Positions 10,401 through 47,162 of a DNA stretch of 52,738 nucleotides are shown piece after piece. The position numbers and the translations under genes are program-made. The notes under the pieces were generated by a model. That model had not been told where the DNA came from and made no database searches. It saw nothing but the letters and a program-made list of their open reading frames with translations. How positions within the stretch are numbered: the first letter of the stretch is position 1; the number at the start of each line of letters is the position of its first letter. This stretch comes from a virus, in IMG/VR virus record IMGVR_UViG_3300029821_000006, positions 1 to 52,738 of that record. One strand, 5' to 3'.

Positions 10401-10632
10401 GAATAATAGCGCTGCAAAAGCAAATCTGAAAGCTTCGATTGAATCAACCTCTGTTACTGTTGGCAATGCTCAAGATAACAATTCCGGGGAGATCCTGGAT
10501 GCACTTAATCGCTTGATTACTGTTGCTGGCACTGGCGGTAATGTATTGATTGATGGAGACAAACTTGTGGGCATAATTGATAAAAAATTCGGCGCAATAG
10601 CCGGGATTAAGGGAAGGGGTGGAGTCATATGA
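7423..10632 (+). CDS. Tape measure protein with C-terminal M23 (LytM-type) peptidase domain
   Basis: 1069 aa; TTG start after AAAGGTGGTGAG; long hydrophobic/helical repeats. M23 motifs HAGIDIG...DHGNGLETLYGHL...GPHLHFGV. Confidence 0.9.
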   Translation: MADGKIIIETGIDTSGIDKGTKSLKSQAASLAAEYRKAGMDQSEAMKKAWSEIDRASSSGSKKLKDDLDDVGKHSDNLSGKLSSMGSIAAKGLTIAASAVAAAGAAMAAAGGYAIKMASDLSEVQNVVDTTFGANTETINKWSKDAGTAFGLSELEAKKYTSTLGAMTKSMGLTDTQTLEMSQGLAGLTGDMSSFYNLDHDEAFDKIRSGISGETEPLKQLGINMSVANLEAYALSQGITTAYDAMSEAEKTTLRYNYLMQVTADAQGDFAKTSGSLANQVRIAQLQVTNLASSVGSALLPMATEAMTKLAGMGQQLNDAFNSGGIDGLVSEIGTVLADLVQMVAEYLPGMVDMGVKVIQSLIDGLITNMPAIMTAAVTVITSLLTGILGMLPSILELGIQMIAQLAIGLAQALPTLIPVAIETILNLITTLLDNIDLIINAGIALIGGLVEGLIAAIPIIIDKLPEIIEKVINAIVKNAPKLIVAGIELIIQMAIGLVKAIPQLIAALPEIIMALVTGLIEAGPALAEAGFTIMLMIQDAFASGWQAISEWFAQLPETIGTFLYNALVSIAKWGLQVQTDMQNAAMNAVNAVGKWFSELPGNIAFALGVAIRNIIDWCIETPQKMQQAADDAITAIGEWFSQLPGNIWNWLTETVANMIQFAVDMGENATTAGNNVFENIVSIIQGLPGALYTLATNMISEIARGIQETASNVYDAVTGLVNDILTKFKEGLGIASPAKELIEIGKYMIQGLINGLNGDSLMAFVNSMIQDLKDKFSSGSFNLKAAIDFIGTGAAEFFKSIGIGGSDFGGLTVPVDGAITSGFGYRDDVGDVGTKDHAGIDIGVPEGTPVGAAGAGTVTQAGWNDGYGNSVTIDHGNGLETLYGHLSEVLVSVGQMVTQLQTIGLSGNTGNSTGPHLHFGVYQDGAAIDPSSLFGLATGTNRVPRTAPYLLHKDEAVIPKKYNPYINGGPAFFAGIAEKMQAAVAEESYKWMNNSAAKANLKASIESTSVTVGNAQDNNSGEILDALNRLITVAGTGGNVLIDGDKLVGIIDKKFGAIAGIKGRGGVI

Positions 10633-11324
10633 GTCGAGCTGACGTGCTTGTCAATACAACGTCTTTGGTAGAATTGTTTAAAATACGTATGTTATCGGTC
10701 AATATTTCGCCACCTAAACCAAAATTGATTCAAATACCGGTTACCGGGACAAGCGATGTTGTCGATATGTCGGAAGCGATCAGCGGCGATATTGAGTATG
10801 ACCAAAGAGAATTAACAGTTGTTTTTGAATATGTTGGAGCGAAAGAAAGCTTTCATGCGATGCATTCAAAAATATTAAATTTTTTACACGGCCGAAAGAT
10901 GCAAATTGTATTTTCGCAGGATTCTGGATTTTATTTCCTTGGCAGGATTTTGGTGGACGATTACAAGTGGGAAGTTTACGGCGGAACGCTGACGCTATCC
11001 GCCACTGTCGACCCGTATAAATACGAAACACAATCATCCATGGAGCCGTGGCTCTGGGATTCGTTCTCATTCGAGGACGGGATTATCAGGGATTATTACG
11101 ATATATCAGTTCCTGGAACCCTAACCATAACAGGACGTCGAAAAAGAGTTTGTCCGAAATTTATTTGCAGTGTAGCAATGACGGTTTCATATCTAGGTAA
11201 TACCTACAATCTGGCAATGGGTGAAAACATTGTACCTGATATTTTTCTGGGCGAAGGTGAACACTTGCTGGCGTTCGGGGGATCCGGTACCGTTGATGTC
11301 GATTATCGGGGGGGGAGCCTATGA
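10629..11324 (+). CDS. Distal tail protein (Dit)
   Basis: 231 aa directly after the tape-measure gene, with overlapping stop/start on both sides. Confidence 0.7.
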   Translation: MSRADVLVNTTSLVELFKIRMLSVNISPPKPKLIQIPVTGTSDVVDMSEAISGDIEYDQRELTVVFEYVGAKESFHAMHSKILNFLHGRKMQIVFSQDSGFYFLGRILVDDYKWEVYGGTLTLSATVDPYKYETQSSMEPWLWDSFSFEDGIIRDYYDISVPGTLTITGRRKRVCPKFICSVAMTVSYLGNTYNLAMGENIVPDIFLGEGEHLLAFGGSGTVDVDYRGGSL

Positions 11325-14300
11325 AAGCCAGCTATAAAACGCACATTGAAAACGAGGGTTGGAACATTGCGGTCGAGGACGGTAAAACGTCTGGGACCAC
11401 TGGCAAAGGATTAAGGCTTGAAGCCCTCATCATCGAATTGTTAGACAAAGGCGGTTTAGATATCGCCATCGAAGCGCAGGCCCACGTACAAAATGTTGGT
11501 TGGCAACCGCTTAAAACCGATGGCGAGATAATCGGGACAGTAGGCGAAAGTCTAAGGCTTGAAGCGGTACGGATTCGGTTAGTCGGAGCCGATGCTAAAA
11601 AATACAAAATTAAATACAGAGTTCACGTCGAGAATATCGGATGGCAAAACTGGAAAGTAGATGGCGAAACTGCCGGAACTGAAAGAGTCGCATTAAGAGC
11701 AGAAGCAATTGAAATCATGCTGGAACGCATCACAGAGGACGTTGTTGTAGTAGTACCTAATACACCCGCAGACGATCCGACACAAATAATTGTACCCCTG
11801 ACAGATCCTAACTCAGCGATACCACCCGAAAAAATCCTGTGTGCAAGTTACGCTACTCACGTTGAAAATTACGGATGGGGTGCAGATGTCACCGATGGCC
11901 GGTTGTCTGGTCGAATTGGTCAGGCGTTGCGATTAGAAGCAATCAGGATTGCATTAATTAATGTTGGAGCGTTAGATTTAGGTGTGGCCTACTCAACCCA
12001 CGTAGAGAATATCGGATGGCAACCCGAAGTTGCAAACGGTCAAACCGCAGGAACAACGGATCAGAGTTTGAGGTTAGAAGCCGTTAAAATGCACCTGACC
12101 GGAACCGATGCGGACAAGTATTCGATCTGGTACCGAGTCCATGTGCAAAACGAAGGATTCCAAGAGTGGTGTCGCGATGGCGATGTTGCCGGAACCGAGG
12201 GGCAATCATTACGAGCCGAAGCGATCCAGATCATTATAACTCTAAAATCCGAAAACATTATCCGGAACCCCGGCGATGCGCCTTTGATAGCGGTCAATTA
12301 CCGTTCACACATTCAAAATCTGGCATGGGCGCAATGGGTAAAGAATGGCGCTAAGTCCGGAACAACTGGTTTAGGACTTCGGATGGAAGCATTAGAAATA
12401 AATCTTTCATCGCTGGATGGCCTAGACATTGGCGTTTCATACCGGGTTCACGTTCAAAATATCGGTTGGCAACCGTGGTTTGCAGATGGTGCAACCTCCG
12501 GGACGGTCGGGCAAAGCCTGAGAATTGAAGCGGTCGAAATTGTTTTGACTGGAACTGATGCGGATAAATACACGGTGCAATATCGTGGACACCTTGAAAA
12601 TTCTGGCTGGACAAGCTGGTGTAAGAACGGCGCAACATTAGGCACAACAGGCGAAGAAATAAGGCTAGAAGCTGTGTCGATTGTACTGATAAAAAACGTA
12701 GACCTGAACGCAGTTGTCACAAACGAAATCAAAAACAAGGCACCAATCGTCCAGATCTGGGCATCTGATTTTCCCCGGGCTGATGTGTTATTGCACGACA
12801 TTCGAACGGACTACCGGCTGTTAAGTGCAAAAACGTCCGAAGGGATTAACAAATCCAGCGGGATGACATTCACGATTGACCCCACGCACCCGCACTATAG
12901 CAAATTGCGAAAAATGCACACGACTATATTGGTGTATGAGATTTATTCAAATACCCGAAAAGACATAATATTTGAGGGGCGGATTCTTAGCGATACCGAA
13001 GATATCTACAAAAAAAGAGTCGTCACCTGTGAGGGAGAATTAGGATATTTACTTGACAGCATCCAACGCCCTGCCCAGTATATCAATGTGACACCGGAAC
13101 AATGGTTGACGCAGGTATTGGATAACCACAATATGCAGGTAACATCCGATAAAAGACTTCATATGGGAATTTGTACAGTTCTGGGTGACGGTAGCGGGGT
13201 TAACATATCCACGAATTACCGAACGCACATCGAAAACCTATCCTGGCTATCATGGGTCAGAAACGGCGACGACAGCGGCACCACCGGTTCGGGATTGCGA
13301 ATGGAGGCGCTGGAACTAACGCTGGAAAATATCGGTAGCATGGATATTGGTGTGACCTACCGGGCACATCTGGCAGATACCGGGTGGCAGGAGTGGGTAG
13401 TTGATGGAGCCACGGCGGGAACGGTTGGATTAGCCGTTGAAATGCAAGCGGTTGAAATCAAACTGACCGGCGCTGATGCTGGATTATTTTCAATCCAATA
13501 CCGGGTTCATGTCGAAAATGAAGGCTGGCAGGATTGGAAACAGGATGGCGAAACCGCCGGGACAACGGGCCAATCACTGAGGGCTGAGTCAATCAGCATT
13601 ATTATTGTCTCGAAGGTCGATGGCACCAACGGAAAATTAAAAGACGGACTATTCCGGGAAAATGAATATGTCAATACGCTGGAATTAATCAAAACAACCA
13701 TGCTGGACACTCTGGGCGGAGTTATAGTGATTGAACGGATCGGCGGGATTAAGTTTCTGAATTACCTGGAAAACTACGGTTCGACAAACTCACAGCCTAT
13801 TAAGTTTGGCGTGAATTTGCTGGATTATTCCAAGATTACAGATGCAAGCGGGATCTATACTGCCCTGGTGCCGTATGGCAAGGAAATCGACGGGAAGAAA
13901 TTAACCATTGCAACAGCAAACAACGACTGTGATTATATTTACGATGAGTTAGCAGTTGCAGAATATGGTTGGATCTTTAAAGAATTTGAGTGGCCGGATA
14001 TCGACAGTCCTTCGGCGTTGATGTATGCGGCGAAATTAAAACTGGCCGGTGGGATTAAGCAGGGAATGTCCCTGGAACTGACCGCCATTGACCTAAGCGA
14101 AGTAAATATTGACATCCAAAAGTTTCAGGTTGGCGATATGGCAAGGAGTGTATCGAAACCGCATGACCTGGACACATTCCTATCAGTGAGTAAAAAAGAA
14201 CGAGATTTACTGAATCGCGGAAATGATCGGATTGTTTTAGGCGGCGTAACCCAATCCCTGACAGATCGGATCTCCGGGCCGCTGGGTGGTGGAATCATGG

Positions 14301-20843: not shown

Positions 20844-21851
20844 ATGCACGAAAACGAAATTACTATCAAGATTATTGCAGAGGTCACAGACCGGTTCCCA
20901 GAGGTGGATGGAAATGTTTTAAGGGATATTATCGAAAGAGAGCTATACCAGTACGAGATCCAGCCAAAGTCCACGGCCCTGGTGGTTCAGTCGGACATGA
21001 ATGAAATGATTATGCTGTACCTGGCCACAAAGAAGCTGGACGGCCTGAGCGACAAGACCCTTAAAAATTATGCTCTGCATTTAAGACGATTCTCAAATTA
21101 TTTTCAAAAGAACGTGGCTGACATTACGGCCATGGATATCCGGATGTTTCTGGCGGATCTGATTAAGTATAAAAATCTGAAAAACTCGACATTGGAAAAT
21201 GAGAAATCAATTCTCAAGAGCTTCTTTGTTTGGTTGGAAAATGAGGATTATATCGTCAAGAGTCCTACCCGAAAGATCAAGTCGACAAAGGTGGAGAAGC
21301 GGGTTAGGAAATCATTGTCTGCTGAGGAACTGGAATTGATGCGGGATGCCTGCAGCACAAACCGGCAACGGGCGTTACTGGAATTTACCTTCAGTACCGG
21401 TGGCCGGCTGTCAGAAATCACCCAAGTCAATATCCAGGACATCAACTGGCATGAGAGATCAGTGAATATCATCGGAAAAGGGAATAAAGAAAGAACGATC
21501 TTCTTTTCTCCAAAAGCCAAGATTTATTTGCAGAAATATTTCAATGAGCGGAAAACATTCCCGATCGTGGACGATGCGCTGTTCGTATCCCAGAAAAAGC
21601 CGTATGGACGGTTAGGGAATCGAGCTGTAGAAAAAGAGATTGGGAAGATTGCTGTACAGGCCGGATTCGATAAGGTTGTATTTCCGCATTTACTCAGACA
21701 CACATTCGCCACCCTGGGTCATAAGGCGGGAATGCCGCTCAACGTGCTGCAGGAACTGATGGGACATTCAAACCCCGGGACGACTCAGATATATGCGGCA
21801 CTGGATAACGAGAGTGTGAAAGCAGAGTACCGGAAACGGATAATTCAATAA
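20844..21851 (+). CDS. Tyrosine recombinase, XerC/XerD-like
   Basis: Catalytic set visible: TGGRLSE (R), GKGNKER (K), HLLRHTFAT (HxxR), GHSNPGTTQIY (H..Y). Confidence 0.9.
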   Translation: MHENEITIKIIAEVTDRFPEVDGNVLRDIIERELYQYEIQPKSTALVVQSDMNEMIMLYLATKKLDGLSDKTLKNYALHLRRFSNYFQKNVADITAMDIRMFLADLIKYKNLKNSTLENEKSILKSFFVWLENEDYIVKSPTRKIKSTKVEKRVRKSLSAEELELMRDACSTNRQRALLEFTFSTGGRLSEITQVNIQDINWHERSVNIIGKGNKERTIFFSPKAKIYLQKYFNERKTFPIVDDALFVSQKKPYGRLGNRAVEKEIGKIAVQAGFDKVVFPHLLRHTFATLGHKAGMPLNVLQELMGHSNPGTTQIYAALDNESVKAEYRKRIIQ

Positions 21852-23618: not shown

Positions 23619-23656
23619 CGTTATCATAAGATATAAATGTGAAGGAGGATGAAATT

Positions 23657-24997
23657 GTGAGGGAAAGTATTCGAAAATGTTTTTATATGTTGGCGGTATT
23701 GTCTATACTGTTTGGGATAGCATCGCCTGGTGTTATGGCCTATCATACCGATAATAATTTTACATATGAAATTGTTGGTGGCGGTGTTTCTGTTACTGAA
23801 TACTCTGGCTACAGTAAAGATGTAGTGATCCCAGATATATTGGGCGGGAGAAAAGTTATAGCTATTGGCGATTCAGCGTTTTCATATCGCGATGATTTAA
23901 CAAGCATTGTGATGCCTGACAGTATAGTTTCTATTGGCGAGGAAGCTTTTTTAAAGTGTCGCAGATTAACAGAATTAAAAATACCTGAAGGAGTAACATT
24001 TATTGATGAATGTGCGTTTGATCATTGCGACAAATTGACCAGCATTACACTTCCGGAAGGTATAACGTCTATTAGTTCTTATACATTTACGCAGTGTAGC
24101 GGGCTAACTAGCATCACAATCCCCAATGGCGTTACTTCCATTGAGTGGGCCGCTTTTTCATACTGCACGGGGCTGAATAGTATAATAATCCCGGAGAGCG
24201 TTACTTCTATTAGCGGTCTTGTATTTAAGGAACACAATGAAAGTTTTGTTATTTATGGTCTTGACGGCTCTTATGCAGAAACTTATGCAAATGAACAAGG
24301 TATACAGTTTTCGGTTATTAAAGATGACCAAATAGCCAAAGCAGTGCATGATCAAATCAATATACTACCGGCTGTGGGTAGCATAAAATTGACCGATAAA
24401 GTGGCTGTAACCGAAGCGCGAACAGCCTATAATAAATTAACGGCCGTGCAAAAAACTTTAGTTAATAACCTAGATATATTGAAAGAATTGGAAAAAAGAA
24501 TTGCTGATCTGGAAGCAGGTGAAAATACTCAAGGACCAATCATTTCCTATCAGACCCACGTTCAAAATATTGGCTGGCAAGAAGATGTCCTACAGGGGGG
24601 AATGTCTGGAACAGAAGGCATGGGATATAGACTTGAAAGTATCCGCATCAGTTTTGAAGATGATGCTAATTTCGATTTAGGCGTGTCTTATTCCACCCAC
24701 GTAGAGAACATCGGATGGCAATCAGAAGTTGCGAACGGCCGAACAGCGGGTACGACCGATCAGGGGTTAAGACTGGAAGCAATTAAAATCAGGCTGACTG
24801 GGGCTGATTCTGATAAATTCGACATCTACTATCAAGTCCATGCGCAAAATTTCGGGTGGCTGGATTGGGCCAAGAATGGAGATAACGCCGGAACTGCAGG
24901 CTTTGGTTTTCGATTGGAAGCAATCAGAATCTCGATTGTACCAAAAGGAGATCCGGCGCCAGGTGCAACATCGAGACCTTTTGTTCAAATGCAATAA
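23657..24997 (+). CDS. Secreted cell-surface protein: signal peptide + BspA-type leucine-rich repeats + three ChW repeats
   Basis: GTG 23657 lies 8 nt after GGAGG. Signal peptide CFYMLAVLSILFGIASPGVMA. LRR units ...LTSITIPNGVTSI... C-terminal ChW units YQTHVQNIGWQ / YSTHVENIGWQ / YQVHAQNFGWLDW. Confidence 0.8.
   Translation: MRESIRKCFYMLAVLSILFGIASPGVMAYHTDNNFTYEIVGGGVSVTEYSGYSKDVVIPDILGGRKVIAIGDSAFSYRDDLTSIVMPDSIVSIGEEAFLKCRRLTELKIPEGVTFIDECAFDHCDKLTSITLPEGITSISSYTFTQCSGLTSITIPNGVTSIEWAAFSYCTGLNSIIIPESVTSISGLVFKEHNESFVIYGLDGSYAETYANEQGIQFSVIKDDQIAKAVHDQINILPAVGSIKLTDKVAVTEARTAYNKLTAVQKTLVNNLDILKELEKRIADLEAGENTQGPIISYQTHVQNIGWQEDVLQGGMSGTEGMGYRLESIRISFEDDANFDLGVSYSTHVENIGWQSEVANGRTAGTTDQGLRLEAIKIRLTGADSDKFDIYYQVHAQNFGWLDWAKNGDNAGTAGFGFRLEAIRISIVPKGDPAPGATSRPFVQMQ
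24541..24940 (+). repeat. ChW triplet of the accessory surface protein
   Basis: The middle unit is near-identical at protein level, and in part at DNA level (acccacgtagagaaYatcggatggcaa), to Tal unit 5 at about 11990-12130. Confidence 0.8.
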
Positions 24998-25524: not shown

Positions 25525-27444
25525 TCAAGATTTTTGTCCCTTGATGTAGTAACTTACCACTTTGCTGTTTTCTCTCTGTACTGGAACGATCTCACCTTGG
25601 TCAACCATTGCATGTAGTGTCTGGTAAACTGCATGGCTGGGATGACCAGTAGCGCGAATGAAATCAACGCCCTTCAATTTTCCATGTTCCCCGATAAAAC
25701 TTAATATCTTTTCTTTGCTCTCATATTGGCATATTTCGGCGCTCGTTGGCATTTTATTAGCACCCGGTTCCCATTCGAATTGGCTTACGAGTCCGTTAGT
25801 AAATGTTATTTCGACGGGCAGACCATTTTTAATAACAATTTTGCTGATTAAAGCATCTATTATTTGGCGCAAATTGCCAGTTCCGGAAGTTTTAACTAAA
25901 TAGTCATAATTAAAAGGTTGTCCTTTTGACATAACTGTCTTTTCGAATAAAACCATCCCCGCTTTAAATGACAAGTTGTCGAATTTTGCGGTTCCATCAA
26001 TCGTTTTGAGCTCATCTATTTGTGCTCCTTTTAGCTCCGTTATTTTTCTGTCGAGATCATTCTTCTTCAACATAAAATCTTTTCCGCTCATCGATTCAGG
26101 CGAGAACAAATAAAGTTCTTCCAGGCGCAAAATAGCAGTTTCATATTTTTTCAATTCATTCTCGATTTTATTCGACCTTTTCAGGGCGGGATCGTTGTTT
26201 CCACTTTTCGTTTTGTGCTTGATTTTAGGTTTCCCTTGATCTAAAAGCTGCCCAATTATGCGGTCGATCGTGCCACTTGAGATTGACTTGAGACGCATGA
26301 ATGGCCATCCGTCGGTTAATAAATTTTCTATTGTGCCGGATCTCATACTTGGCTTAATCAACTCAGATAGCCTACGAACGTTAGATAGATAGTTAAACAC
26401 AATCGGAACTAACAGGCCATCTCCAATGCACCCCTTGCACGAATTTATGCTGCCATAGCCGGAACAAGAGTAGGTCGCCGGACGTAAGCCGTTTGATTTT
26501 TTCCTCGCTCCTGTGCTGGCATTGTACGGCCTTAAGCAGTCTCCGCAAATCAATTTTCTCGAGAAAATGTTTATCTGAGCGTTTTCTCGATGGTATTGGC
26601 TATCGCCGTTTCGATTTGATTTAAGGAGATTCTGGACTCGGCTAAATTGTTCTTCGTCAATGATGGCGGGATGGCTATTTTCTATAACAATCCAGTCGTT
26701 CTCTTTTTTCATTTTTCTTGAAGTGTAGTCCCGATAATTGTATCGGTATGTCCCTTTATAAAAAGGGTTTTTTAGCATGCTAACAATTGTGCTATGATCC
26801 CATTCGCCGCCACGCTTTGTTTTTATACCTTTATCCGCGAGGCTGGTCGCGACATCATTGGACGACTTGGTTTCTTCATATAGGTTAAAGATGTATCTTA
26901 CGATTTCGGCTTCATGTTCGTCAATTACCGGGAATTTACATTTACTTTCGATTAGATATCCCATCGGCGGTTGGGCGCCATTATAAAGCCCTTTTGAAGC
27001 TCTATCGATCATCACGGATAATACTCTTTCAGCAGTCATCTTCCTTTCAAGTTCTGCAAAAATTAAAGTGATCCGCAGCATCGCTTCGCCCATGGGGGAA
27101 CTGGTATCAAATTGTTCATTCTTGGATATAAAAGCGGTATCATACTTTTTTATTTCCTCATACATTTCACAAAAGTCAATTAGGTTTCGACTGATCCGGT
27201 CAAGCTTCCAGACCAGAATATGAGAAAACTCACGGTTTCGGACCCGGGTCATCATTTCCTGGTATTTAGGTCGGTCTGTGTTTTTGGCAGAGAACCCGGC
27301 ATCTTCAAAGATCTCATAGTCATCGATGTTCAGAGCGTACCTGGCATAGTTTACCAGATCATCGCGCTGCAGGGGAAGACTGTCTTTGTCTGCCTGCATG
27401 GCCGTAGAGACCCGGATGTAGAGTGCTGCTTTTTTATTGGACAT
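25525..27444 (-). CDS. Large serine recombinase (phage integrase)
   Basis: AALYIRVSTAMQ...LPLQ catalytic Ser motif, recombinase domain, Cys cluster CGDCLRPY...CSGYGSINSCKGC, coiled coil. ATG 27444 follows GAAGGTG. Confidence 0.9.
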   Translation of the reverse strand: MSNKKAALYIRVSTAMQADKDSLPLQRDDLVNYARYALNIDDYEIFEDAGFSAKNTDRPKYQEMMTRVRNREFSHILVWKLDRISRNLIDFCEMYEEIKKYDTAFISKNEQFDTSSPMGEAMLRITLIFAELERKMTAERVLSVMIDRASKGLYNGAQPPMGYLIESKCKFPVIDEHEAEIVRYIFNLYEETKSSNDVATSLADKGIKTKRGGEWDHSTIVSMLKNPFYKGTYRYNYRDYTSRKMKKENDWIVIENSHPAIIDEEQFSRVQNLLKSNRNGDSQYHRENAQINIFSRKLICGDCLRPYNASTGARKKSNGLRPATYSCSGYGSINSCKGCIGDGLLVPIVFNYLSNVRRLSELIKPSMRSGTIENLLTDGWPFMRLKSISSGTIDRIIGQLLDQGKPKIKHKTKSGNNDPALKRSNKIENELKKYETAILRLEELYLFSPESMSGKDFMLKKNDLDRKITELKGAQIDELKTIDGTAKFDNLSFKAGMVLFEKTVMSKGQPFNYDYLVKTSGTGNLRQIIDALISKIVIKNGLPVEITFTNGLVSQFEWEPGANKMPTSAEICQYESKEKILSFIGEHGKLKGVDFIRATGHPSHAVYQTLHAMVDQGEIVPVQRENSKVVSYYIKGQKS

Positions 27445-27458
27445 GAGAACACCTTCTT

Positions 27459-27902
27459 TTACTGGTATTGGTAATGGCCGCACAGCTTCGCGCGGTTAAG
27501 CACTTGCTCTACTGGCATGCCATATTTTTCCGCTAAATCCCACTCATTCAATCGTTTTATATCTTTCTCAAATAAGTATGGGGGCATGGTGAAATAGAGT
27601 GCAAAAGCGTCCGCTGAGGCTTCGTGCTTTCCAGGGGTATCGATTGTGGTCTTTTGTCGCCCGTGGGAAACAATATGGCCAAGCTCATGCGCCAAGGCAA
27701 ATCTTTGATCTGAGATTGTTTCAAAACGTGGCAAAATAAGCTCATTTCTAAAAATGCATGGCCTATTGATCTCTGAGCAATTTATAAGGGAATAGCCTTT
27801 ATCGGTAATGATTTCTTCGATGTCGTGAATTGGGACCGGCAGTGTCAAAATAGGATATTTGTTTAGTGTTTTGATTACATGTTTCTGTGTCATTTTATAC
27901 AA
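27459..27902 (-). CDS. immA: ImmA/IrrE-family metallopeptidase (start uncertain: TTG 27902, ATG 27893 or TTG 27923)
   Basis: HEXXH motif ALAHELGHIVSH. GGAGG lies 7 nt before TTG 27902. Followed 14 nt downstream by the integrase gene. Confidence 0.8.
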   Translation of the reverse strand: MYKMTQKHVIKTLNKYPILTLPVPIHDIEEIITDKGYSLINCSEINRPCIFRNELILPRFETISDQRFALAHELGHIVSHGRQKTTIDTPGKHEASADAFALYFTMPPYLFEKDIKRLNEWDLAEKYGMPVEQVLNRAKLCGHYQYQ

Positions 27903-27936
27903 TGTTGAACCTCCGTTTATCAATGCAATGAAAAAT

Positions 27937-27950
27937 AGAACGTGTGTTCT
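27937..27950. promoter_or_regulatory. LexA (Cheo/SOS) box aGAACgtgtGTTCt upstream of immA-int
   Basis: Perfect GAAC-N4-GTTC, just downstream of a minus-strand TACAAT -10-like hexamer. Confidence 0.65.
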
Positions 27951-28026
27951 TTTATTGTAGCAGAAAATCAGAGGTAGCAGTGAATAATTTAGAGTAAAAA
28001 ATTGTGAAGAAAATTAAGGGGGAAGG

Positions 28027-28046
28027 CGGGGAGAAGGATCTCCCCG
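28027..28046. terminator. Hairpin terminator after the membrane-protein gene
   Basis: CGGGGAGA-agga-TCTCCCCG. Confidence 0.55.
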
Positions 28047-28089
28047 GGTAAAATATGGTTATTATTAGCAGATGTTAAGGAATTAATAA

Positions 28090-28626
28090 TTATTTTAATC
28101 CGTATTGGGTTTTCACAGAAAGGGTACCGTCTTGGAAAGACAGAATTACGTTTGCTCCAAAATCACCTTCGCCTTCAAATGTGTAGGTTTGGGTATAGTA
28201 CGGTTCGCCCTTAGTTCCAACTTCTGACGATAGCGTTCCTGGTCCGCCAACGATAGCAATAACTTCATCATAAGTCATTCCATTTTGAATAGCGGTGAAT
28301 TCGGCCATGTTCATTTTTGGCGAGTTTGCTGCTGCTTGTTTCGTAGTTTCTGTTTCAGCTGGCTTTGCCTCCTGTGAAGTTGAAGACGCTACCTCTGTTT
28401 GCGTCGTGGCTTGAGGTATTGTTTTGGCTGCATTACCACCGCCAGTTATCCCTGCGAACCACATAAGCGAGTAGAATGCCAGTATGATCGTTAAAAAAAT
28501 TCTAAGACCAATCCCACCCTTTCCGTTCACCCATAAAAGAGTAAGCCCTGCTGGGGGAATAAAGATACAAGCGAGAACAACCACCCACGTTTTTTGCCAC
28601 CACGGCACTTTTACATTTTCATCCAT
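28090..28626 (-). CDS. Membrane protein with C-terminal DUF3862/BLIP-like domain (superinfection-exclusion candidate)
   Basis: Three TM segments, a Thr/Ala/Glu linker, then MAEFTAIQNGMTYDEVIAIVGGPGTL...TYTFEGEG...SFQDGTLSVKTQYGL. Confidence 0.75.
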   Translation of the reverse strand: MDENVKVPWWQKTWVVVLACIFIPPAGLTLLWVNGKGGIGLRIFLTIILAFYSLMWFAGITGGGNAAKTIPQATTQTEVASSTSQEAKPAETETTKQAAANSPKMNMAEFTAIQNGMTYDEVIAIVGGPGTLSSEVGTKGEPYYTQTYTFEGEGDFGANVILSFQDGTLSVKTQYGLK

Positions 28627-28725
28627 TTTCTGTTACTCCTCCTAAATATAGTTTAGTTAAAGTATATACTGATCGGGAAGGTACTGTAAATCAATAGAAC
28701 GTGCAAATTTTAGATGAAATCATCA

Positions 28726-28759
28726 TGATTTATCAAAGTTCATCGAAAGTTTGATAAAT
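28726..28759. repeat. Perfect 10-bp inverted repeat ATTTATCAAA(N12)TTTGATAAAT between the nuclease-like and membrane genes
   Basis: Read directly. Either a terminator without a T-run or an operator. Confidence 0.5.
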
Positions 28760-28793
28760 GTAAAGTATGAAAAAAGTCTTTGATTGGCTCGGC

Positions 28794-29870
28794 CTAACTG
28801 ATTAAGCTGTTTAAGCGCGCAACCAGCTGGTCAGTATAGGCATATATATCGTCAAGTTTATCTAAGACAATCTTTTCATTGGCATCACCATTTGGAATGA
28901 TGATATATTTTGTATTTTCTTTCAAGAATATGCGACAAATCCACTTAGTAACTTTCCCGTCAATAATAATCGAGAAGTAGCTAGCCGTGTCCTTGTACCC
29001 GATCCGGTTTAAATCAACAGCATTATGCAAAAGCGATTTTACAATGAAAAAGCACTCGATTTCTTCGTCCGTAGTAATGATATTGGAAACACTTGCGATT
29101 AGAGCGGATTCATCAACTTCTTCAAACTGTTGAATGGCCTTGGGTTCAAACGATTCATCGCTTTTTAATGCGTTCTGAATTTTGTCATTGACCAGCTCAT
29201 TAATATACTGGGATATTGATTTCTTCACAGTGGGCCGGTATTTATCGACAGTGTTTTGAGTCTTCATTCCGTCGTATACGCCCTGGGTTAAAATAAAACG
29301 GATAAAATCATCGGATGGATTTGAAAACTCATCTTTCAAGACTTTCTTGATTAAACCGAGGTACTTGAGCTCCGAAGCGGTATCTAAGATCATGCTCAGG
29401 TCAAAGTTTTCTTTGCAGAACTTTTTGAGTTCAATTATCTCACTGTCGCTGATATCAAGCAAATTAATTTCGAAAAATGGGGAACTGTCCATTTTATTTT
29501 GCTCATCCAGGTCACTGTAGAACCGATAAATAAGACCATTCGTTAATATTGCAAATTTTGCCGCCGTTGTCCCAAAGTAGCGGAACAATTGGGAGTCATG
29601 TTTTTCTAACTGCTCATTGATCGATTTAGCTTCAATGAGTAAGGTAAGTTCTCCATTTAAAAGGATTGCATAATCCACTTTTTCGCCTTTTTTAATGCCA
29701 ACGTCAGCTGTGTATTCTGGTATAAACTCCGTCGGGTTGAATACATCATAACCCAGAATTTGGAAAAATGGCATTACTATGGACGTTTTCGTAGCTTCTT
29801 CCGTAGCAATGTTGTCCTTTGTCTTTTTTACTCGCTCAATAAACTCTCTCAACTTCTCCTCAAAACTCAT
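28794..29870 (-). CDS. Stand-alone HsdR-N-terminal-like PD-(D/E)xK nuclease-fold protein with conserved C-terminal domain
   Basis: EEATKTSIVMPFFQILGY...KVDYAILLNGELTLLIEAKS...FAILTNGLIYRFY gives E...D...ExK. ATG 29870 is 5 nt after AGGAGG. The track start 29903 lacks an RBS. Confidence 0.75.
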   Translation of the reverse strand: MSFEEKLREFIERVKKTKDNIATEEATKTSIVMPFFQILGYDVFNPTEFIPEYTADVGIKKGEKVDYAILLNGELTLLIEAKSINEQLEKHDSQLFRYFGTTAAKFAILTNGLIYRFYSDLDEQNKMDSSPFFEINLLDISDSEIIELKKFCKENFDLSMILDTASELKYLGLIKKVLKDEFSNPSDDFIRFILTQGVYDGMKTQNTVDKYRPTVKKSISQYINELVNDKIQNALKSDESFEPKAIQQFEEVDESALIASVSNIITTDEEIECFFIVKSLLHNAVDLNRIGYKDTASYFSIIIDGKVTKWICRIFLKENTKYIIIPNGDANEKIVLDKLDDIYAYTDQLVARLNSLIS

Positions 29871-29930
29871 GTTTTCCTCCTGTAGATTTGATTTTTTTGA
29901 CATATGTCAGACTTTCAATAAAATCTGACA

Positions 29931-29959
29931 AAATAAAAAACAGACTTGAATAAAGCCTG
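29931..29959 (-). terminator. Terminator immediately after the repressor gene
   Basis: Hairpin CAGaCTT-gaata-AAGcCTG plus a minus-strand T-run. Confidence 0.55.
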
Positions 29960-30349
29960 TTATTTTTCTTCGTTTATTTTCTTAAGTGCCTTTTGACCCT
30001 TTATGAAGTTCAAAAGATTTCTTTTTTCTTCTTCGGACCATTCGTCGTAATCCTGAAATTCTGTTCGAAGTGGTTCGTCGTCCAGCAGTGCTTCCAGTTC
30101 TTTTGCGTAATCATGTTCGTCGTAAAGATCTTGGTTGACGTCACGGGAAGGGATGGGATCGTCAGTTAGACAAAGAATATAATCGATGGATACCTCAAAT
30201 ATTAAAGCCAATGACTTCAAAACCTCGTTTGATATTTGAAGTAGCTCGTTTTCATATTTCGAAATAGCAGCACCTTGCACACCTATTTTCTTAGCAAGTT
30301 CGGCTTGTGTAATACCTTTTTTTATTCTTAGTTCTTTTATTCTATTCAT
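29960..30349 (-). CDS. XRE-family HTH repressor (CI/ImmR-like)
   Basis: MNRIKELRIKKGITQAELAKKIGVQGAAISKYENE; divergent from the cro-like gene. Confidence 0.85.
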   Translation of the reverse strand: MNRIKELRIKKGITQAELAKKIGVQGAAISKYENELLQISNEVLKSLALIFEVSIDYILCLTDDPIPSRDVNQDLYDEHDYAKELEALLDDEPLRTEFQDYDEWSEEEKRNLLNFIKGQKALKKINEEK

Positions 30350-30372: not shown

Positions 30373-30401
30373 ATTATATTCTATCCAATATGGAAAAACA
30401 A
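30373..30401 (-). promoter_or_regulatory. Leftward (repressor) promoter
   Basis: Minus strand TTGTTT, 17 nt, TATAAT; operator O1 lies in the spacer. Confidence 0.55.
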
Positions 30402-30498
30402 CGGATGTATCCAATGTGGAAAAAATATTTTTAAAAAAGCGTTGACATTATCCATGGTGGAAAGTATAATGAATCTATAAATATTCCATGATGGAAAA
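30382..30498. promoter_or_regulatory. Four operator boxes, consensus TATCCA-N3-TGGAAAA (O1 30382-30397, O2 30408-30423, O3 30449-30464, O4 30482-30498)
   Basis: Read directly: tatccaatatggaaaa / tatccaatgtggaaaa / tatccatggtggaaag / tattccatgatggaaaa. Confidence 0.8.
30442..30470 (+). promoter_or_regulatory. Rightward early promoter (consensus)
   Basis: TTGACA, 17 nt, TATAAT, with O3 filling the spacer. Confidence 0.8.
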
Positions 30499-30526
30499 TG
30501 CGAGAAATAAGAAACGAGGTGATTAA

Positions 30527-30763
30527 GTGAGAAATTTAAGAGAAATTAGAACGAGCAAAAAAATATCGGCTATGGATATGGCGGCAGCGTTGGGCTTGAA
30601 AACAGAGGCGGCTTACTATAAAAAGGAAAGTGGCAGTATTAGAATTACGATTGATGAAGCTAAAATAATAGCCGATAAACTCGGAGAACCGATTGAATTA
30701 GTTTTTTTTAGCGACGAACTTTCCACCACGGAAAATCAAGCTAAAAAACCAAAAGCAAGCTAG
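30527..30763 (+). CDS. Cro-like XRE HTH protein
   Basis: GTG start after GAGGTG. 78 aa; first gene of the rightward operon. Confidence 0.75.
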   Translation: MRNLREIRTSKKISAMDMAAALGLKTEAAYYKKESGSIRITIDEAKIIADKLGEPIELVFFSDELSTTENQAKKPKAS

Positions 30764-45437: not shown

Positions 45438-45568
45438 CTGATTTAGCACTCGGCGCATTTACACTCATCGCCATGGGATCAGTGGTCACGGCTGTGATTG
45501 CTGGGGTCGCATTAGCTGGGCTTGGTCTGGTAGAGTGGTTCAAGTATGGGAGGAGCCGGAATGAATGA
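45434..45568 (+). CDS. Tiny TM peptide (44 aa)
   Basis: ATGA coupling; MTDLALGAFTLIAMGSVVTAVIAGVALAGLGLVEWFKYGRSRNE. Confidence 0.35.
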   Translation: MTDLALGAFTLIAMGSVVTAVIAGVALAGLGLVEWFKYGRSRNE

Positions 45569-47162
45569 ATACTACCCAACGCCACACCAAATCGTAATGG
45601 GGATGTACGAAAAATTAAATAAAAACAACAGAAATATGTCGATTTTAGAACCTTCTGCAGGGAAAGGACATATCTACAATGGGATAAAACAAATTTATGA
45701 AACTGAATACCGGAATCGTTCAATTAATATCGATGCCATCGAGGTTGAAACAGAGTTCCAGCACATCTTAAAAGGCCAAGGCATTAAAGTGATCCACGAT
45801 GACTTCCTGACATTTGAGACGTTCAAAAGTTACGACTGCATTATAATGAACCCGCCGTTTTCATGCGGAGATAAGCACCTCATGAAGGCTATTGAGATCC
45901 AGCAGCGACGGGGTGGCCAGGTGATTTGCATTTTAAATGCCGAAACCATCCGTAACCCACATAGCTTCTTAAGAAAAAAGATAATCAGGACGCTTGAGGA
46001 ATATAAAGCTGAAATTGATTTTATTGAAGATGGGTTTGTCGACGCCGAAAGGAAAACAGGGGTTGAGGTTGCGCTGATTAATGTTACATTCCCAGAAATT
46101 ATCAAAACTGACACCAGTCTGATTTTGGATAAAATGAAAAAGGCCGAGAAGTACGAAGACCTGGTTAAAGATTACGCTTCTTTAATCAGCGGCGACCCAG
46201 TAATGGGCATCATTGATTCGTATGAGTATGAAATAAAAGTCGGTGTTGAGTTTATCGAGGAATATTTCAGAATTTCACCGGTTCTATTATCAGGCGACGA
46301 GATTCAGAACAAGGAGTGCTTTATCCTCCTGTCGGTCGGAAAAGAAAACGGTAGGCCAGTTTTTGAGGATGATCGGGCCACGACGATTAATAAATTTATC
46401 AAGCGGACCCGGCACAAGTATTGGAAAACAATCTTTAATTTAAAGGCGATCACCGAAATTGTGACAACTGATGCTTATTATGACCTAAACAGCAAGATTG
46501 AAGAATTTTCAGACTATGATGTGACCTTATTCAATATCCGGCAATTGCAACAGCAACTTTACCAGAACCTTGGATCAAACATTGAAGCCGGTATCGAAGC
46601 TTTTTTCGATGATGTGACCACCAAAGCCTATGATGGGAAAAATACACTTTATTATGACGCCTGGAAGACCAACAAGGCCTGGAAGATTGGGAAGAAAGCG
46701 ATTATCTGGCTGGATGCTTATGATAAATACTGGGGTCGATTTGAGCCGGATAGACAAGCTTTTGACCGGGTGATTGAGATGGAAAAGATATTGAGCTACT
46801 TGAGTAAAGGGAAAAAGACGGTTGTAAAAGACGGTGTTTATGAAGCCCTTATTAAAGCGAAAACTGAAGGGAAAACAAAAAATATCGAGTTTGAATATTT
46901 CAACCTCACATTCTACAAGAAAGGCACCTGTCATATTGAGTTTACCGATGAAAAAGCGATTGAGTTATTAAATATCTTTGTGGCGAAAAAGCGGAACTGG
47001 TTGCCGCCGGCGTATGGGAAGAAGGAATACTACAACTTAACCCCGGAGGAAAAGGAAGCGATCAACAACTTCCAAGGAGAAAAAAACTACGAGCGATGCC
47101 GAATGGATAGCGAAGTTCAGAATGTGCTGAAAGATAATGGGTTATTGAGGTTGAGTGCATGA
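45561..47162 (+). CDS. N6-adenine DNA methyltransferase (gamma-type motif order) with long C-terminal domain
   Basis: Motif I ILEPSAGKGHI and motif IV IIMNPPFSCG. ATG 45561 follows GGGAGGAG. Confidence 0.85.
   Translation: MNEYYPTPHQIVMGMYEKLNKNNRNMSILEPSAGKGHIYNGIKQIYETEYRNRSINIDAIEVETEFQHILKGQGIKVIHDDFLTFETFKSYDCIIMNPPFSCGDKHLMKAIEIQQRRGGQVICILNAETIRNPHSFLRKKIIRTLEEYKAEIDFIEDGFVDAERKTGVEVALINVTFPEIIKTDTSLILDKMKKAEKYEDLVKDYASLISGDPVMGIIDSYEYEIKVGVEFIEEYFRISPVLLSGDEIQNKECFILLSVGKENGRPVFEDDRATTINKFIKRTRHKYWKTIFNLKAITEIVTTDAYYDLNSKIEEFSDYDVTLFNIRQLQQQLYQNLGSNIEAGIEAFFDDVTTKAYDGKNTLYYDAWKTNKAWKIGKKAIIWLDAYDKYWGRFEPDRQAFDRVIEMEKILSYLSKGKKTVVKDGVYEALIKAKTEGKTKNIEFEYFNLTFYKKGTCHIEFTDEKAIELLNIFVAKKRNWLPPAYGKKEYYNLTPEEKEAINNFQGEKNYERCRMDSEVQNVLKDNGLLRLSA

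What the first reader, a model, noticed from the sequence alone, without database searches (positions are those of the whole stretch)
28794..29870. Transcriptionally insulated stand-alone HsdR-N-like PD-(D/E)xK nuclease gene inside the lysogeny block: single-gene defence candidate
Seen: a 358-aa minus-strand ORF lies between the repressor and immA-int. It has a strong own RBS (AGGAGG), a terminator directly upstream (29931-29959, after the repressor stop) and a perfect 10-bp inverted repeat downstream (28726-28759). The N-terminal half reads EEATKTS...KVDYAILLNGELTLLIEAKS...FAILTNGLIYRFY, matching the E...D...ExK nuclease core of the type I restriction HsdR N-terminal domain. No helicase, methylase or specificity genes are nearby. 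The C-terminal half (IITTDEEIECFFIVKSLLH...YKDTASYFSIIIDGKVTKWICRIFL) is a second conserved-looking domain of unknown role. Established: genes in this position (expressed from the prophage, between cI and int) are frequently superinfection-immunity or defence genes. Inference: this is a lysogen-expressed nuclease effector whose sensing mechanism is unknown.
Basis: partly seen in the sequence, partly recalled or inferred. Interest (0 to 1): 0.65.

Follow-up and report, generated by a model that had tools for sequence, protein, structure and literature searches.

The report
Prophage cargo-slot HsdR-type nuclease gene
A temperate phage of Acetobacterium carries, in a swappable slot just after its repressor gene, a stand-alone DNA-cutting enzyme from a very large but untested family that most likely protects the lysogen against other phages.

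Summary
A 358-aa minus-strand gene (28794-29870) with an AGGAGG ribosome-binding site lies between the repressor and a membrane-protein/ImmA/serine-integrase block. Its N-terminal domain is an HsdR-type PD-(D/E)xK nuclease. E24, D66, E80, K82, Q94 and Y98 are invariant in 47 relatives of 36-61% identity.

There is no helicase, and no methylase or specificity gene nearby, so the database name "type I restriction endonuclease" is wrong.

The family is very large, with at least 1187 clusters at 50% identity. It sits directly after the immunity repressor in prophages of Bacillota, Actinomycetota and Enterobacteria, and has no conserved partner gene.

Sibling phages with the same repressor/ImmA scaffold carry a candidate defence system (PDC-M24) or other cargo in exactly this slot. 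The cassette is 28765-29934.

"Transcriptionally insulated" is not supported. The upstream terminator belongs to the scaffold, and sibling cargo abuts it without a promoter. The downstream inverted repeat is not terminator-like and is not conserved.

The C-terminal domain folds confidently but matches no known structure. PADLOC v2 does not hit the protein, and I found no experimental paper.

Verdict: a credible, unproven single-gene defence nuclease. It is a new variant of a known kind and of moderate interest.

The parts
28794..29870 (-). 358-aa stand-alone HsdR-N-type nuclease gene (stop codon 28794-28796)
   Evidence: ORF and translation. Pfam HSDR_N and HSDR_N_2. Full-length match to phrog_4225 'endonuclease', E=1.8e-132. 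More than 7700 homologues.
29451..29870 (-). Residues 1-140: PD-(D/E)xK nuclease domain. E24/E25, D66, E80-x-K82 and Q94-xxx-Y98 form the active site.
   Evidence: All of these residues except E25 (45 of 47) are invariant in 47 relatives of 36-61% identity. AF2 pLDDT is mostly 86-95. The best Foldseek hit is the DrdV nuclease domain 7lvv_D, TM 0.60.
29160..29450 (-). Residues 141-237: all-helical middle domain
   Evidence: AF2 helices 142-149, 158-183, 187-198 and 205-236. It is conserved across the family and has no Pfam match.
29082..29159 (-). Residues 238-263: acidic, disordered linker of variable length
   Evidence: pLDDT below 50. Length is 13-33 aa and the median acidic fraction is 0.27 in alignment A3.
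28797..29081 (-). Residues 264-358: C-terminal alpha-beta5-alpha domain of unassigned fold. Conserved residues are T267, E270, D294, Y298, D304, K309, C312 and R313.
   Evidence: The domain model has pLDDT 90.7 and pTM 0.81. No Foldseek hit with E<=1e-3 in PDB or BFVD. No sequence-profile hit in PDB. Conservation.
29876..29881 (-). Ribosome-binding site AGGAGG, 5 nt before the ATG
   Evidence: Read directly from the sequence.
29929..29961 (-). Intrinsic terminator after the repressor stop codon. It is a scaffold element, probably leaky.
   Evidence: Terminator scan. RNA fold z=-3.95. It is conserved in five sibling phages whatever their cargo, and in L100/L102 the cargo RBS abuts the T tract.
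28765..29934 (-). Exchangeable cargo cassette. DNA homology to sibling phages L100/L102 stops at 29935 and resumes at 28764.
   Evidence: blastn breakpoints. The same slot holds PDC-M24A/B in L100/L102, and two unknown genes in L101.
28728..28759 (.). Perfect 10-bp inverted repeat with a 12-nt loop, lying in the conserved promoter region of the next gene. It is not terminator-like.
28661..28736 (-). Two promoter-like sites for the downstream membrane-protein gene: TTGATA-18-TAAAAT and TTTACA-18-TATACT
   Evidence: Promoter scan, 10 of 12 positions each. The block is conserved in the siblings.
29960..30349 (-). HTH_3 (XRE/CI-type) repressor, the first gene of the lysogenic transcript
   Evidence: Pfam match. 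Divergent from a Cro-like gene at 30527-30763, with three direct repeats in between.
25525..28626 (-). Rest of the lysogeny block: 178-aa membrane protein (28090-28626), ImmA/Peptidase_M78 (27459-27923) and large serine integrase (25525-27483)
   Evidence: Pfam matches. The same order is found integrated in the Acetobacterium wieringae chromosome.

Best explanation
The gene is accessory cargo (a 'moron') in the lysogeny module of a temperate Acetobacterium phage. It encodes an active single-chain DNA endonuclease that most likely protects the lysogen against superinfecting phages or other foreign DNA.

Shown:
- An HsdR/RecB-type PD-(D/E)xK active site is fully conserved.
- There is no translocase, no methylase partner and no conserved neighbour.
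- The gene occupies a sharply bounded exchangeable slot directly after the repressor. Sibling phages hold a candidate defence system in that slot.

Inferred:
- The gene is transcribed in the lysogen from the repressor promoter by read-through of a leaky terminator, which keeps its level low.
- The helical and C-terminal domains decide what is cut. Because the gene is tolerated alone in hundreds of species, host DNA cannot be a substrate.
- The most likely logic is type IV-like direct restriction: the enzyme recognises a modification or DNA form that the host lacks (about 0.35).
- The alternative is an autoinhibited nuclease released by an infection cue (about 0.25).
For: Nuclease domain:
- Pfam HSDR_N at 57.9 bits.
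- E24, D66, E80, K82, Q94 and Y98 are invariant in 47 diverse relatives.
- The structural best match is the DrdV restriction nuclease domain.

Position:
- The repressor (or repressor plus ImmA) is followed by the nuclease in Acetoanaerobium, Enterococcus and Streptococcus phages and in gut prophages.
- The same order is seen in Klebsiella phage KpF5, Corynebacterium phage Juicebox and an E. coli lambdoid prophage.
- 34 of 80 genomic loci carry lysogeny markers, and 24 have an integrase within 8 genes.

Cargo slot:
- Breakpoints lie at 29935 and 28764.
- L100 and L102 carry PDC-M24A/B there, with PADLOC E=5e-41 and 4e-90.
- One gut prophage has an Mrr-type nuclease directly upstream of the gene.

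Expression: the terminator is conserved, and sibling cargo abuts it without room for a promoter.

No partner: the neighbours of 32 non-prophage loci fall into 142 Pfam families, none seen more than twice.

Lysogeny: the same module is integrated in the A. wieringae chromosome.
Against: - There are no experimental data for any family member in the papers I could search.
- No PADLOC v2 model hits the protein.
- About 40% of the genomic copies examined (32 of 80 loci) show no prophage marker. Their neighbours are mostly ordinary metabolic or regulatory genes, with only a few defence-like ones.
- The family is unusually well conserved for a defence gene: 45-50% identity between phyla.
- The C-terminal domain resembles no known modified-base reader.
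- Read-through expression is inferred from anatomy and has not been measured.
- The phage's own methyltransferase-like gene (45546-47162) would conflict with a methyl-adenine-dependent specificity.
Confidence: 0.58

Rival explanations
1. The nuclease serves the phage's own life cycle and not defence. It might degrade or process host or phage DNA during induction, recombination or excision.
For: PD-(D/E)xK nucleases are common in phage recombination and repair modules. The family is strongly conserved. It lies next to ImmA and the integrase.
Against: Sibling phages with 93-97% identical ImmA lack the gene and carry unrelated cargo in its place, so it is dispensable. It is oriented with the repressor, not with the lytic genes. 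It also occurs between baseplate genes and next to HicAB in other phages, and alone in non-phage chromosomal sites.
Confidence: 0.12
2. It is a selfish, homing-type free-standing endonuclease cassette that spreads by cutting cognate sites in related phages that lack it.
For: It is a single nuclease gene with sharp cassette boundaries. It is found at different positions in different phages, including between baseplate genes. Its phylogenetic spread is wide and implies horizontal transfer.
Against: Sibling phages do not have an empty target site. They carry alternative cargo in the slot. The position directly after the repressor recurs across phyla, which fits a lysogen-expressed cargo slot better than homing. 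Many copies lie in non-phage chromosomal contexts.
Confidence: 0.08
3. It is the restriction half of a split restriction-modification pair whose methylase is the methyltransferase-like/DUF4942 gene at 45546-47162.
For: That ORF has the motifs xPxxGxG and NPPF, plus Pfam MTS (22.3 bits, below the 23-bit cut-off) and DUF4942.
Against: The two genes are 16 kb apart, on opposite strands and in different transcription programmes. No methylase recurs near the nuclease in 80 loci. A lysogen expressing the nuclease without the methylase would be killed.
Confidence: 0.04
4. It is an inactive or regulatory relic that binds DNA without cutting it.
For: The protein is acidic overall, with pI 4.7-6.2 per domain. 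No activity data exist.
Against: Every catalytic residue is invariant over thousands of sequences. That argues for selection on catalysis.
Confidence: 0.05

Closest known systems
N-terminal nuclease domain of type I restriction subunit HsdR (e.g. EcoR124I; Pfam HSDR_N PF04313)
   Same: It has the same domain family and the same motif set D...ExK...QxxxY. The spacing D66-14-E80-2-K82-12-Q94-4-Y98 matches what I recall for EcoR124I (D151, E165, K167, Q179, Y183). That comparison is from memory and was not tested here.
   Different: There are no SF2 translocase domains and no HsdM/HsdS partners. At 358 aa it is about a third of the roughly 1000 aa of HsdR. It has its own helical and C-terminal domains.
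Prophage-encoded type IV (modification-dependent) restriction enzymes, such as McrA of prophage e14, or Mrr (from general knowledge)
   Same: It is a single-chain nuclease without a cognate methylase, carried by a prophage and tolerated by the host. One database source labels a homologue 'predicted type IV restriction endonuclease'.
   Different: It has a different nuclease family or architecture. No recognisable modified-base reader domain is present. Dependence on modification is untested.
Lambda rexAB and other genes co-transcribed with the prophage repressor
   Same: The position and presumed expression match: the gene lies directly downstream of the repressor on the lysogenic transcript. 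In an E. coli lambdoid prophage and in Klebsiella phage KpF5 the homologue lies directly after the repressor, the place that, from general knowledge, rexAB holds after cI in lambda.
   Different: RexAB is a two-protein membrane-depolarising abortive-infection system, not a nuclease.
Shedu (SduA, DUF4263) and similar single-gene PD-(D/E)xK defence nucleases
   Same: It is a single protein that combines a PD-(D/E)xK nuclease with variable regulatory or sensor domains.
   Different: It is not homologous at the level PADLOC detects. SduA models are in PADLOC and did not hit the protein. The domain order is reversed, with the nuclease at the N terminus.
PDC-M24 (PADLOC candidate system; DUF6978 plus DUF1828/DUF1829)
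   Same: It occupies exactly the same slot in sibling phages L100 and L102.
   Different: The proteins are unrelated, and it is a two-gene system.
DrdV (type IIL restriction-modification enzyme) nuclease domain, PDB 7lvv/7lo5
   Same: It is the best structural match to the N-terminal domain (E=0.013, TM 0.60 on the target).
   Different: DrdV is a 1013-aa fused nuclease-methylase-specificity enzyme. Only the nuclease domain corresponds.

Membership tests
Type I restriction enzyme R subunit (HsdR) | N-terminal PD-(D/E)xK nuclease domain | tested here: met
   HSDR_N at 57.9 bits and HSDR_N_2 at 25.8 bits. The catalytic residues are invariant.
Type I restriction enzyme R subunit (HsdR) | SF2 helicase/translocase motor (ResIII/DEAD plus Helicase_C) | tested here: not met
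   The protein has only 358 aa, and Pfam shows no helicase domain even at E<=1. The AF2 model shows nuclease, helical bundle and a small alpha/beta domain.
Type I restriction enzyme R subunit (HsdR) | Encoded with hsdM and hsdS | tested here: not met
   None are present in the window's lysogeny block. None recur among the neighbours of the 80 loci.
Pfam HSDR_N / PD-(D/E)xK superfamily (domain level) | Profile match above the gathering score and an intact D...(D/E)xK motif | tested here: met
PHROG 4225 ('endonuclease') | Full-length profile match | tested here: met
   E=1.8e-132, residues 1-354 against profile positions 2-352 of 357.
Type IV modification-dependent restriction enzymes | Nuclease with no cognate methyltransferase | tested here: met
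   No methylase is adjacent in the window or recurrent in 80 loci. The only methyltransferase-like gene in the window is 16 kb away.
Type IV modification-dependent restriction enzymes | Recognisable modified-base reader domain (SRA, winged helix, DUF3427 and similar) | tested here: inconclusive
   The C-terminal domain folds confidently but has no Pfam, PDB-sequence or Foldseek match. One relative has a sub-threshold SeqA_C-like extension (20.2 bits against a cut-off of 25.5).
Type IV modification-dependent restriction enzymes | Cleavage requires modified DNA | not testable with these tools
   This needs biochemistry.
Catalogued anti-phage defence systems (PADLOC-DB v2.0.0, 2023) | Match to any model | tested here: not met
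   0 families at E<=1.
DefenseFinder 'FS_HsdR_like' (PICI-encoded; recalled from memory, Fillol-Salom et al. 2022) | Homology to that system's protein | not testable with these tools
   The model and paper are not available here. This is a lead only.
Prophage lysogeny-module cargo ('moron') genes | Presence or absence, or replacement, among otherwise syntenic related phages, with sharp boundaries | tested here: met

The most novel reading that the evidence does not exclude
This could be the founding example of a major unrecognised class of single-protein anti-phage nucleases. In this class the HsdR nuclease module is detached from the type I machinery and governed by a new alpha-beta5-alpha sensor domain. 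In some relatives that domain is exchanged for, or supplemented by, a TerD domain. The class would be spread by temperate phages of at least four bacterial phyla, in the slot directly after the repressor, and would discriminate self from non-self by a mechanism not yet described.
Probability: 0.2. Interest if true: 0.8.

Novelty: new variant of a known kind. Interest (0 to 1): 0.5.

Why it matters
If the family is a defence nuclease, thousands of genes now labelled "type I restriction endonuclease" or "endonuclease" are mis-described. One of the commonest cargo genes of the repressor-proximal slot of temperate phages would also gain a function. Those phages infect gut Clostridia, streptococci, enterococci, Porphyromonas and E. 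coli. The unassigned C-terminal domain and its TerD-fused relatives would offer a tractable single-protein model for how a nuclease without a methylase spares host DNA. The sibling-phage comparison also defines a precise cargo slot, from terminator to promoter, that can be mined for further candidates.

Tried and rejected
- Sequence search of the PDB with the protein and with family profiles found nothing significant.
- Foldseek with the whole model found only the nuclease domain, matching DrdV and weakly EcoR124I.
- Foldseek with the C-terminal domain against PDB and BFVD gave no hit with E<=1e-3. There were only weak frataxin- or PH-like resemblances with TM below 0.4 to 0.6, which I do not trust.
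- NCBIfam and PADLOC gave no hit.
- I considered the C-terminal domain as a second, degenerate PD-(D/E)xK domain (E270...D294...D304xK306). I rejected this because K306 is Asn in most relatives and the topology is alpha-beta5-alpha, not alpha-beta3-alpha-beta.
- I considered the downstream inverted repeat as a terminator or operator and rejected it.
- GC content does not mark the gene as foreign: about 37%, against 34-46% in its surroundings.
- Ten literature searches found no characterisation of the family. I could not obtain the Fillol-Salom 2022 paper.
- A search for a conserved partner gene by all-against-all clustering of 1375 neighbour ORFs found only lysogeny genes.

Full report
**1. 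Observation**

The minus strand carries an ORF at 28794..29903. The ATG at 29870 is preceded by AGGAGG (29876-29881) with a 5-nt spacer. Homologues begin at this Met, so the product has 358 aa.

The neighbours on the same strand are:
- an HTH_3 repressor (29960-30349);
- a 178-aa membrane protein with a DUF3862/BLIP-like C terminus (28090-28626);
- a Peptidase_M78/ImmA protein (27459-27923);
- a large serine recombinase (25525-27483).

A Cro-like HTH gene and a Bro-N/ANT antirepressor run divergently from 30527.

A terminator follows the repressor stop codon. Its stem is 29961-29939, followed by a T tract. It folds at -13.2 kcal/mol with z=-3.95.

The downstream inverted repeat is perfect (10-bp arms, 12-nt loop) but lies at 28728-28759.

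**2. The protein**

Database matches:
- Pfam gives HSDR_N (E=1.7e-15, 57.9 bits) and HSDR_N_2, and nothing for the rest of the chain.
- PHROGs gives a full-length match to phrog_4225 'endonuclease' (E=1.8e-132).
- NCBIfam and PADLOC v2 give nothing.

Conservation:
- In 58 relatives of at least 58% identity, and in 47 cluster representatives of 36-61% identity, E24, D66, E80, K82, Q94 and Y98 never vary.
- These residues form the D...ExK core plus the QxxxY motif of RecB/HsdR-type nucleases.
- The spacing equals what I recall for EcoR124I HsdR. That is from memory and was not tested.

AlphaFold2 with the alignment (mean pLDDT 82) gives four parts:
- a nuclease domain (residues 1-136);
- a helical domain (142-236);
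- a disordered acidic linker (238-263);
- an alpha-beta5-alpha domain (268-357).

Structural comparisons:
- The whole model matches the nuclease domain of the type IIL enzyme DrdV best (7lvv_D, E=0.013, TM 0.60). It matches EcoR124I HsdR only weakly.
- The C-terminal domain modelled alone is confident (pLDDT 90.7, pTM 0.81).
- That domain has no Foldseek hit at E<=1e-3 in PDB or BFVD and no sequence-profile hit in PDB.
- Its conserved polar residues (T267, E270, D294, Y298, D304, K309, C312, R313) suggest a binding site. They do not suggest a second active site.

**3. Size and spread of the family**

- The word-indexed search was saturated, with 7773 hits among 8000 candidates.
- The exhaustive search of 50%-identity representatives found 5831 clusters at E<=1e-3 and 1187 at E<=1e-30. 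Almost all are full length at about 350-370 aa.
- A capped scan of one genome per species found at least 596 loci. The best 80 come from Bacillota, Bacteroidota, Proteobacteria and Nitrospirae.
- The nearest relatives (93-99% identity) are from Acetobacterium.
- The gene is also in 19 deposited phages, in 51 plasmid records, and in about 40 of 5426 complete E. coli genomes.
- Four of ten longer relatives carry a TerD domain. In three it is N-terminal, and in one it replaces the C-terminal domain.

**4. Genomic context**

In phages the gene lies directly after the immunity repressor, or after repressor plus ImmA, on the same strand. This holds for:
- Acetoanaerobium phage ANDSL2_ph1, Enterococcus phage EG-TP1 and Streptococcus phage IPP25;
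- human-gut prophages;
- Klebsiella phage KpF5 and Corynebacterium phage Juicebox;
- an E. coli lambdoid prophage.

Elsewhere it sits next to HicAB in a Porphyromonas phage and between baseplate genes in an E. coli prophage. An Acetobacterium wieringae chromosome carries the same module integrated beside a truncated Mg-chelatase/ComM-like gene.

I called ORFs in the 80 genomic loci and clustered 1375 neighbour proteins. The only recurrent neighbours are HTH or LexA-like repressors at positions -1 and -2, tyrosine or serine integrases at +1 to +4, and ImmA.
- 34 of 80 loci have a lysogeny marker, and 24 have an integrase within 8 genes.
- In 32 well-flanked loci without markers, the four nearest genes hit 142 Pfam families, none more than twice. 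A few are defence-like: mREase_IV, PbeA, PDC-S07.
- There is no conserved partner and no methylase.

**5. The slot**

I retrieved four sibling phages through the serine integrase. They share ImmA at 93-97% identity and a related repressor.
- L099 has the nuclease.
- L100 and L102 have a 147-aa plus a 263-aa gene in its place. These are PADLOC PDC-M24A (E=5e-41) and PDC-M24B (E=4e-90), carrying Pfam DUF6978 and DUF1828/DUF1829.
- L101 has a 314-aa gene and a 158-aa membrane-protein gene of unknown family.

DNA homology between the window and L100/L102 ends at 29935, just past the terminator, and resumes at 28764. The cassette is therefore 28765-29934.

The terminator is conserved in all five phages. 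In L100 and L102 the cargo RBS follows its T tract directly, leaving no room for a promoter. The cargo there must be expressed by read-through from the repressor promoter.

In the window, the 45 nt after the terminator are shared with L101, which carries different cargo. The only minus-strand promoter-like site there is weak, matching 9 of 12 positions.

The block downstream of the cassette is conserved. It holds two promoter-like sites for the membrane-protein gene. The inverted repeat lies within this block and fails as a terminator on four counts:
- it matches only 7 of 10 positions in the siblings;
- it has no U tract;
- it folds no better than shuffled sequence;
- about one such repeat per window is expected by chance.

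'Transcriptional insulation' is thus a property of the scaffold around a cargo slot and not of this gene. The downstream 'insulator' is not real.

In other phages the spacer between the upstream repressor or ImmA gene and the nuclease gene is at most 60 nt in 10 of 22 cases. That again fits an operon.

**6. Mechanism**

Shown:
- The protein has a catalytically intact restriction-type nuclease domain.
- It has no motor, no methylase and no partner.
- It is dispensable, exchangeable cargo in a slot that also receives a candidate defence system.
- It is placed on the lysogenic side across phyla.

Inferred:
- It is expressed at a low level in the lysogen by terminator read-through.
- It cuts incoming DNA.

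Because the gene is carried alone by hundreds of species, host DNA cannot be a substrate. Two explanations follow:
- The non-catalytic domains recognise a feature absent from the host. This is type IV-like logic. From general knowledge, prophage-encoded type IV enzymes such as McrA of e14 are a precedent.
- The nuclease is autoinhibited until infection.

I favour the first slightly. I put overall confidence that this is a defence nuclease at about 0.6.

Rivals:
- a role in the phage's own DNA metabolism (0.12);
- a homing-type selfish nuclease (0.08);
- an inactive relic (0.05);
- a split restriction-modification pair with the methyltransferase-like/DUF4942 gene at 45546-47162 (0.04).

The sibling comparison argues against the first two, because the gene is dispensable and the slot is never empty. 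Family-wide context argues against the split R-M pair.

**7. Comparison and novelty**

- It is not a type I R subunit, despite the database name. The motor and the M/S partners were tested and are absent.
- At domain level it is a member of HSDR_N, and it belongs to phrog_4225.
- It works most like a prophage-borne type IV or single-gene nuclease defence.
- It holds the position directly after the repressor, which from general knowledge is where rexAB sits in lambda.
- It is absent from PADLOC v2, and ten literature searches found no experimental work.
- A DefenseFinder entry that I recall as 'FS_HsdR_like' could be related, but I could not check it.

I rate it a new variant of a known kind. 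The family is already catalogued but functionally untested, and it has an unassigned sensor-like domain.

Interest is moderate (0.5). The inference is conventional, but the family's size, its consistent position and the clean cargo-slot evidence make it a good experimental target.

Noticed in passing
window 28090-28626 (-): The 178-aa protein has N-terminal transmembrane segments and a DUF3862/BLIP-like C-terminal domain. It has its own conserved promoter-like sites. In sibling phages the N-terminal part is conserved (DNA homology 28764-28457) but the C-terminal domain is replaced. L099 has unrelated DNA at this position, with a 180-aa ORF, so this is a second variable slot. The protein may be a superinfection-exclusion candidate.
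   Followed up: partly
window 45546-47162 (+): This 538-aa ORF has the motifs EPSAGKG and NPPF, a sub-threshold Pfam MTS match and a DUF4942 domain. It looks like an orphan phage DNA adenine methyltransferase in the lytic region.
   Followed up: partly
L100 6229-7453 and L102 (IMG/VR sibling phages): The PADLOC candidate system PDC-M24 (DUF6978 plus DUF1828/DUF1829) sits in the same repressor-proximal slot. Its RBS directly abuts the conserved terminator.
   Followed up: yes
L101 5322-6761: A third cargo variant in the same slot: a 314-aa protein and a 158-aa multi-pass membrane protein, with no Pfam or PADLOC match. This may be an uncatalogued two-gene system.
   Followed up: partly
proteins P0122, P0214, P0241, P0188 (family relatives): TerD domains are fused to the nuclease family. 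In three proteins the TerD domain is N-terminal, and in P0188 it replaces the C-terminal domain. P0189 has a sub-threshold SeqA_C-like C-terminal extension.
   Followed up: partly
window 29897-29924 (+): A near-consensus promoter-like site, TTGACA-16-TAAAAT (11 of 12 positions), lies on the opposite strand within the segment after the terminator. It points antisense into the terminator and the 3' end of the repressor gene. It could drive an antisense RNA or be chance in AT-rich DNA.
   Followed up: no
window 30382-30499: Three direct copies of TATCCAAT(A/G)TGGAAAAA-like sequence, plus related TTCCATGATGGAAAAT elements, lie between the divergent repressor and Cro-like genes. They overlap a perfect TTGACA-17-TATAAT promoter at 30442-30470. 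They are probably operators.
   Followed up: no
window 20844-21851 (+) and 23639-24997 (+): A second recombinase, a tyrosine type with a SAM-like N-terminal domain, lies after the tail genes. It is followed by a protein with BspA-type leucine-rich repeats and ChW repeats. This could be a tail-fibre or host-range switching module, or surface-protein cargo.
   Followed up: no
L104 (Acetobacterium wieringae CP113903.1) 9426-12276: The related prophage is integrated next to a truncated Mg_chelatase/ComM-like gene of 279-296 aa. This suggests that gene is the attachment site of the serine integrase. L105 has the identical nuclease but a different repressor/Cro pair.
   Followed up: no
L011 6741-7967 (gut prophage): An Mrr_cat/NA-iREase1 nuclease, with PADLOC PDC-S02 and ZorD-like hits, lies between the repressor and the HsdR-N nuclease gene. 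Two nuclease cargo genes are therefore stacked in one lysogeny module.
   Followed up: partly
plasmid collection hits: 21 of the 51 plasmid records with a homologue are from Borreliella or Borrelia. Several records labelled as plasmids are chromosome-sized.
   Followed up: no
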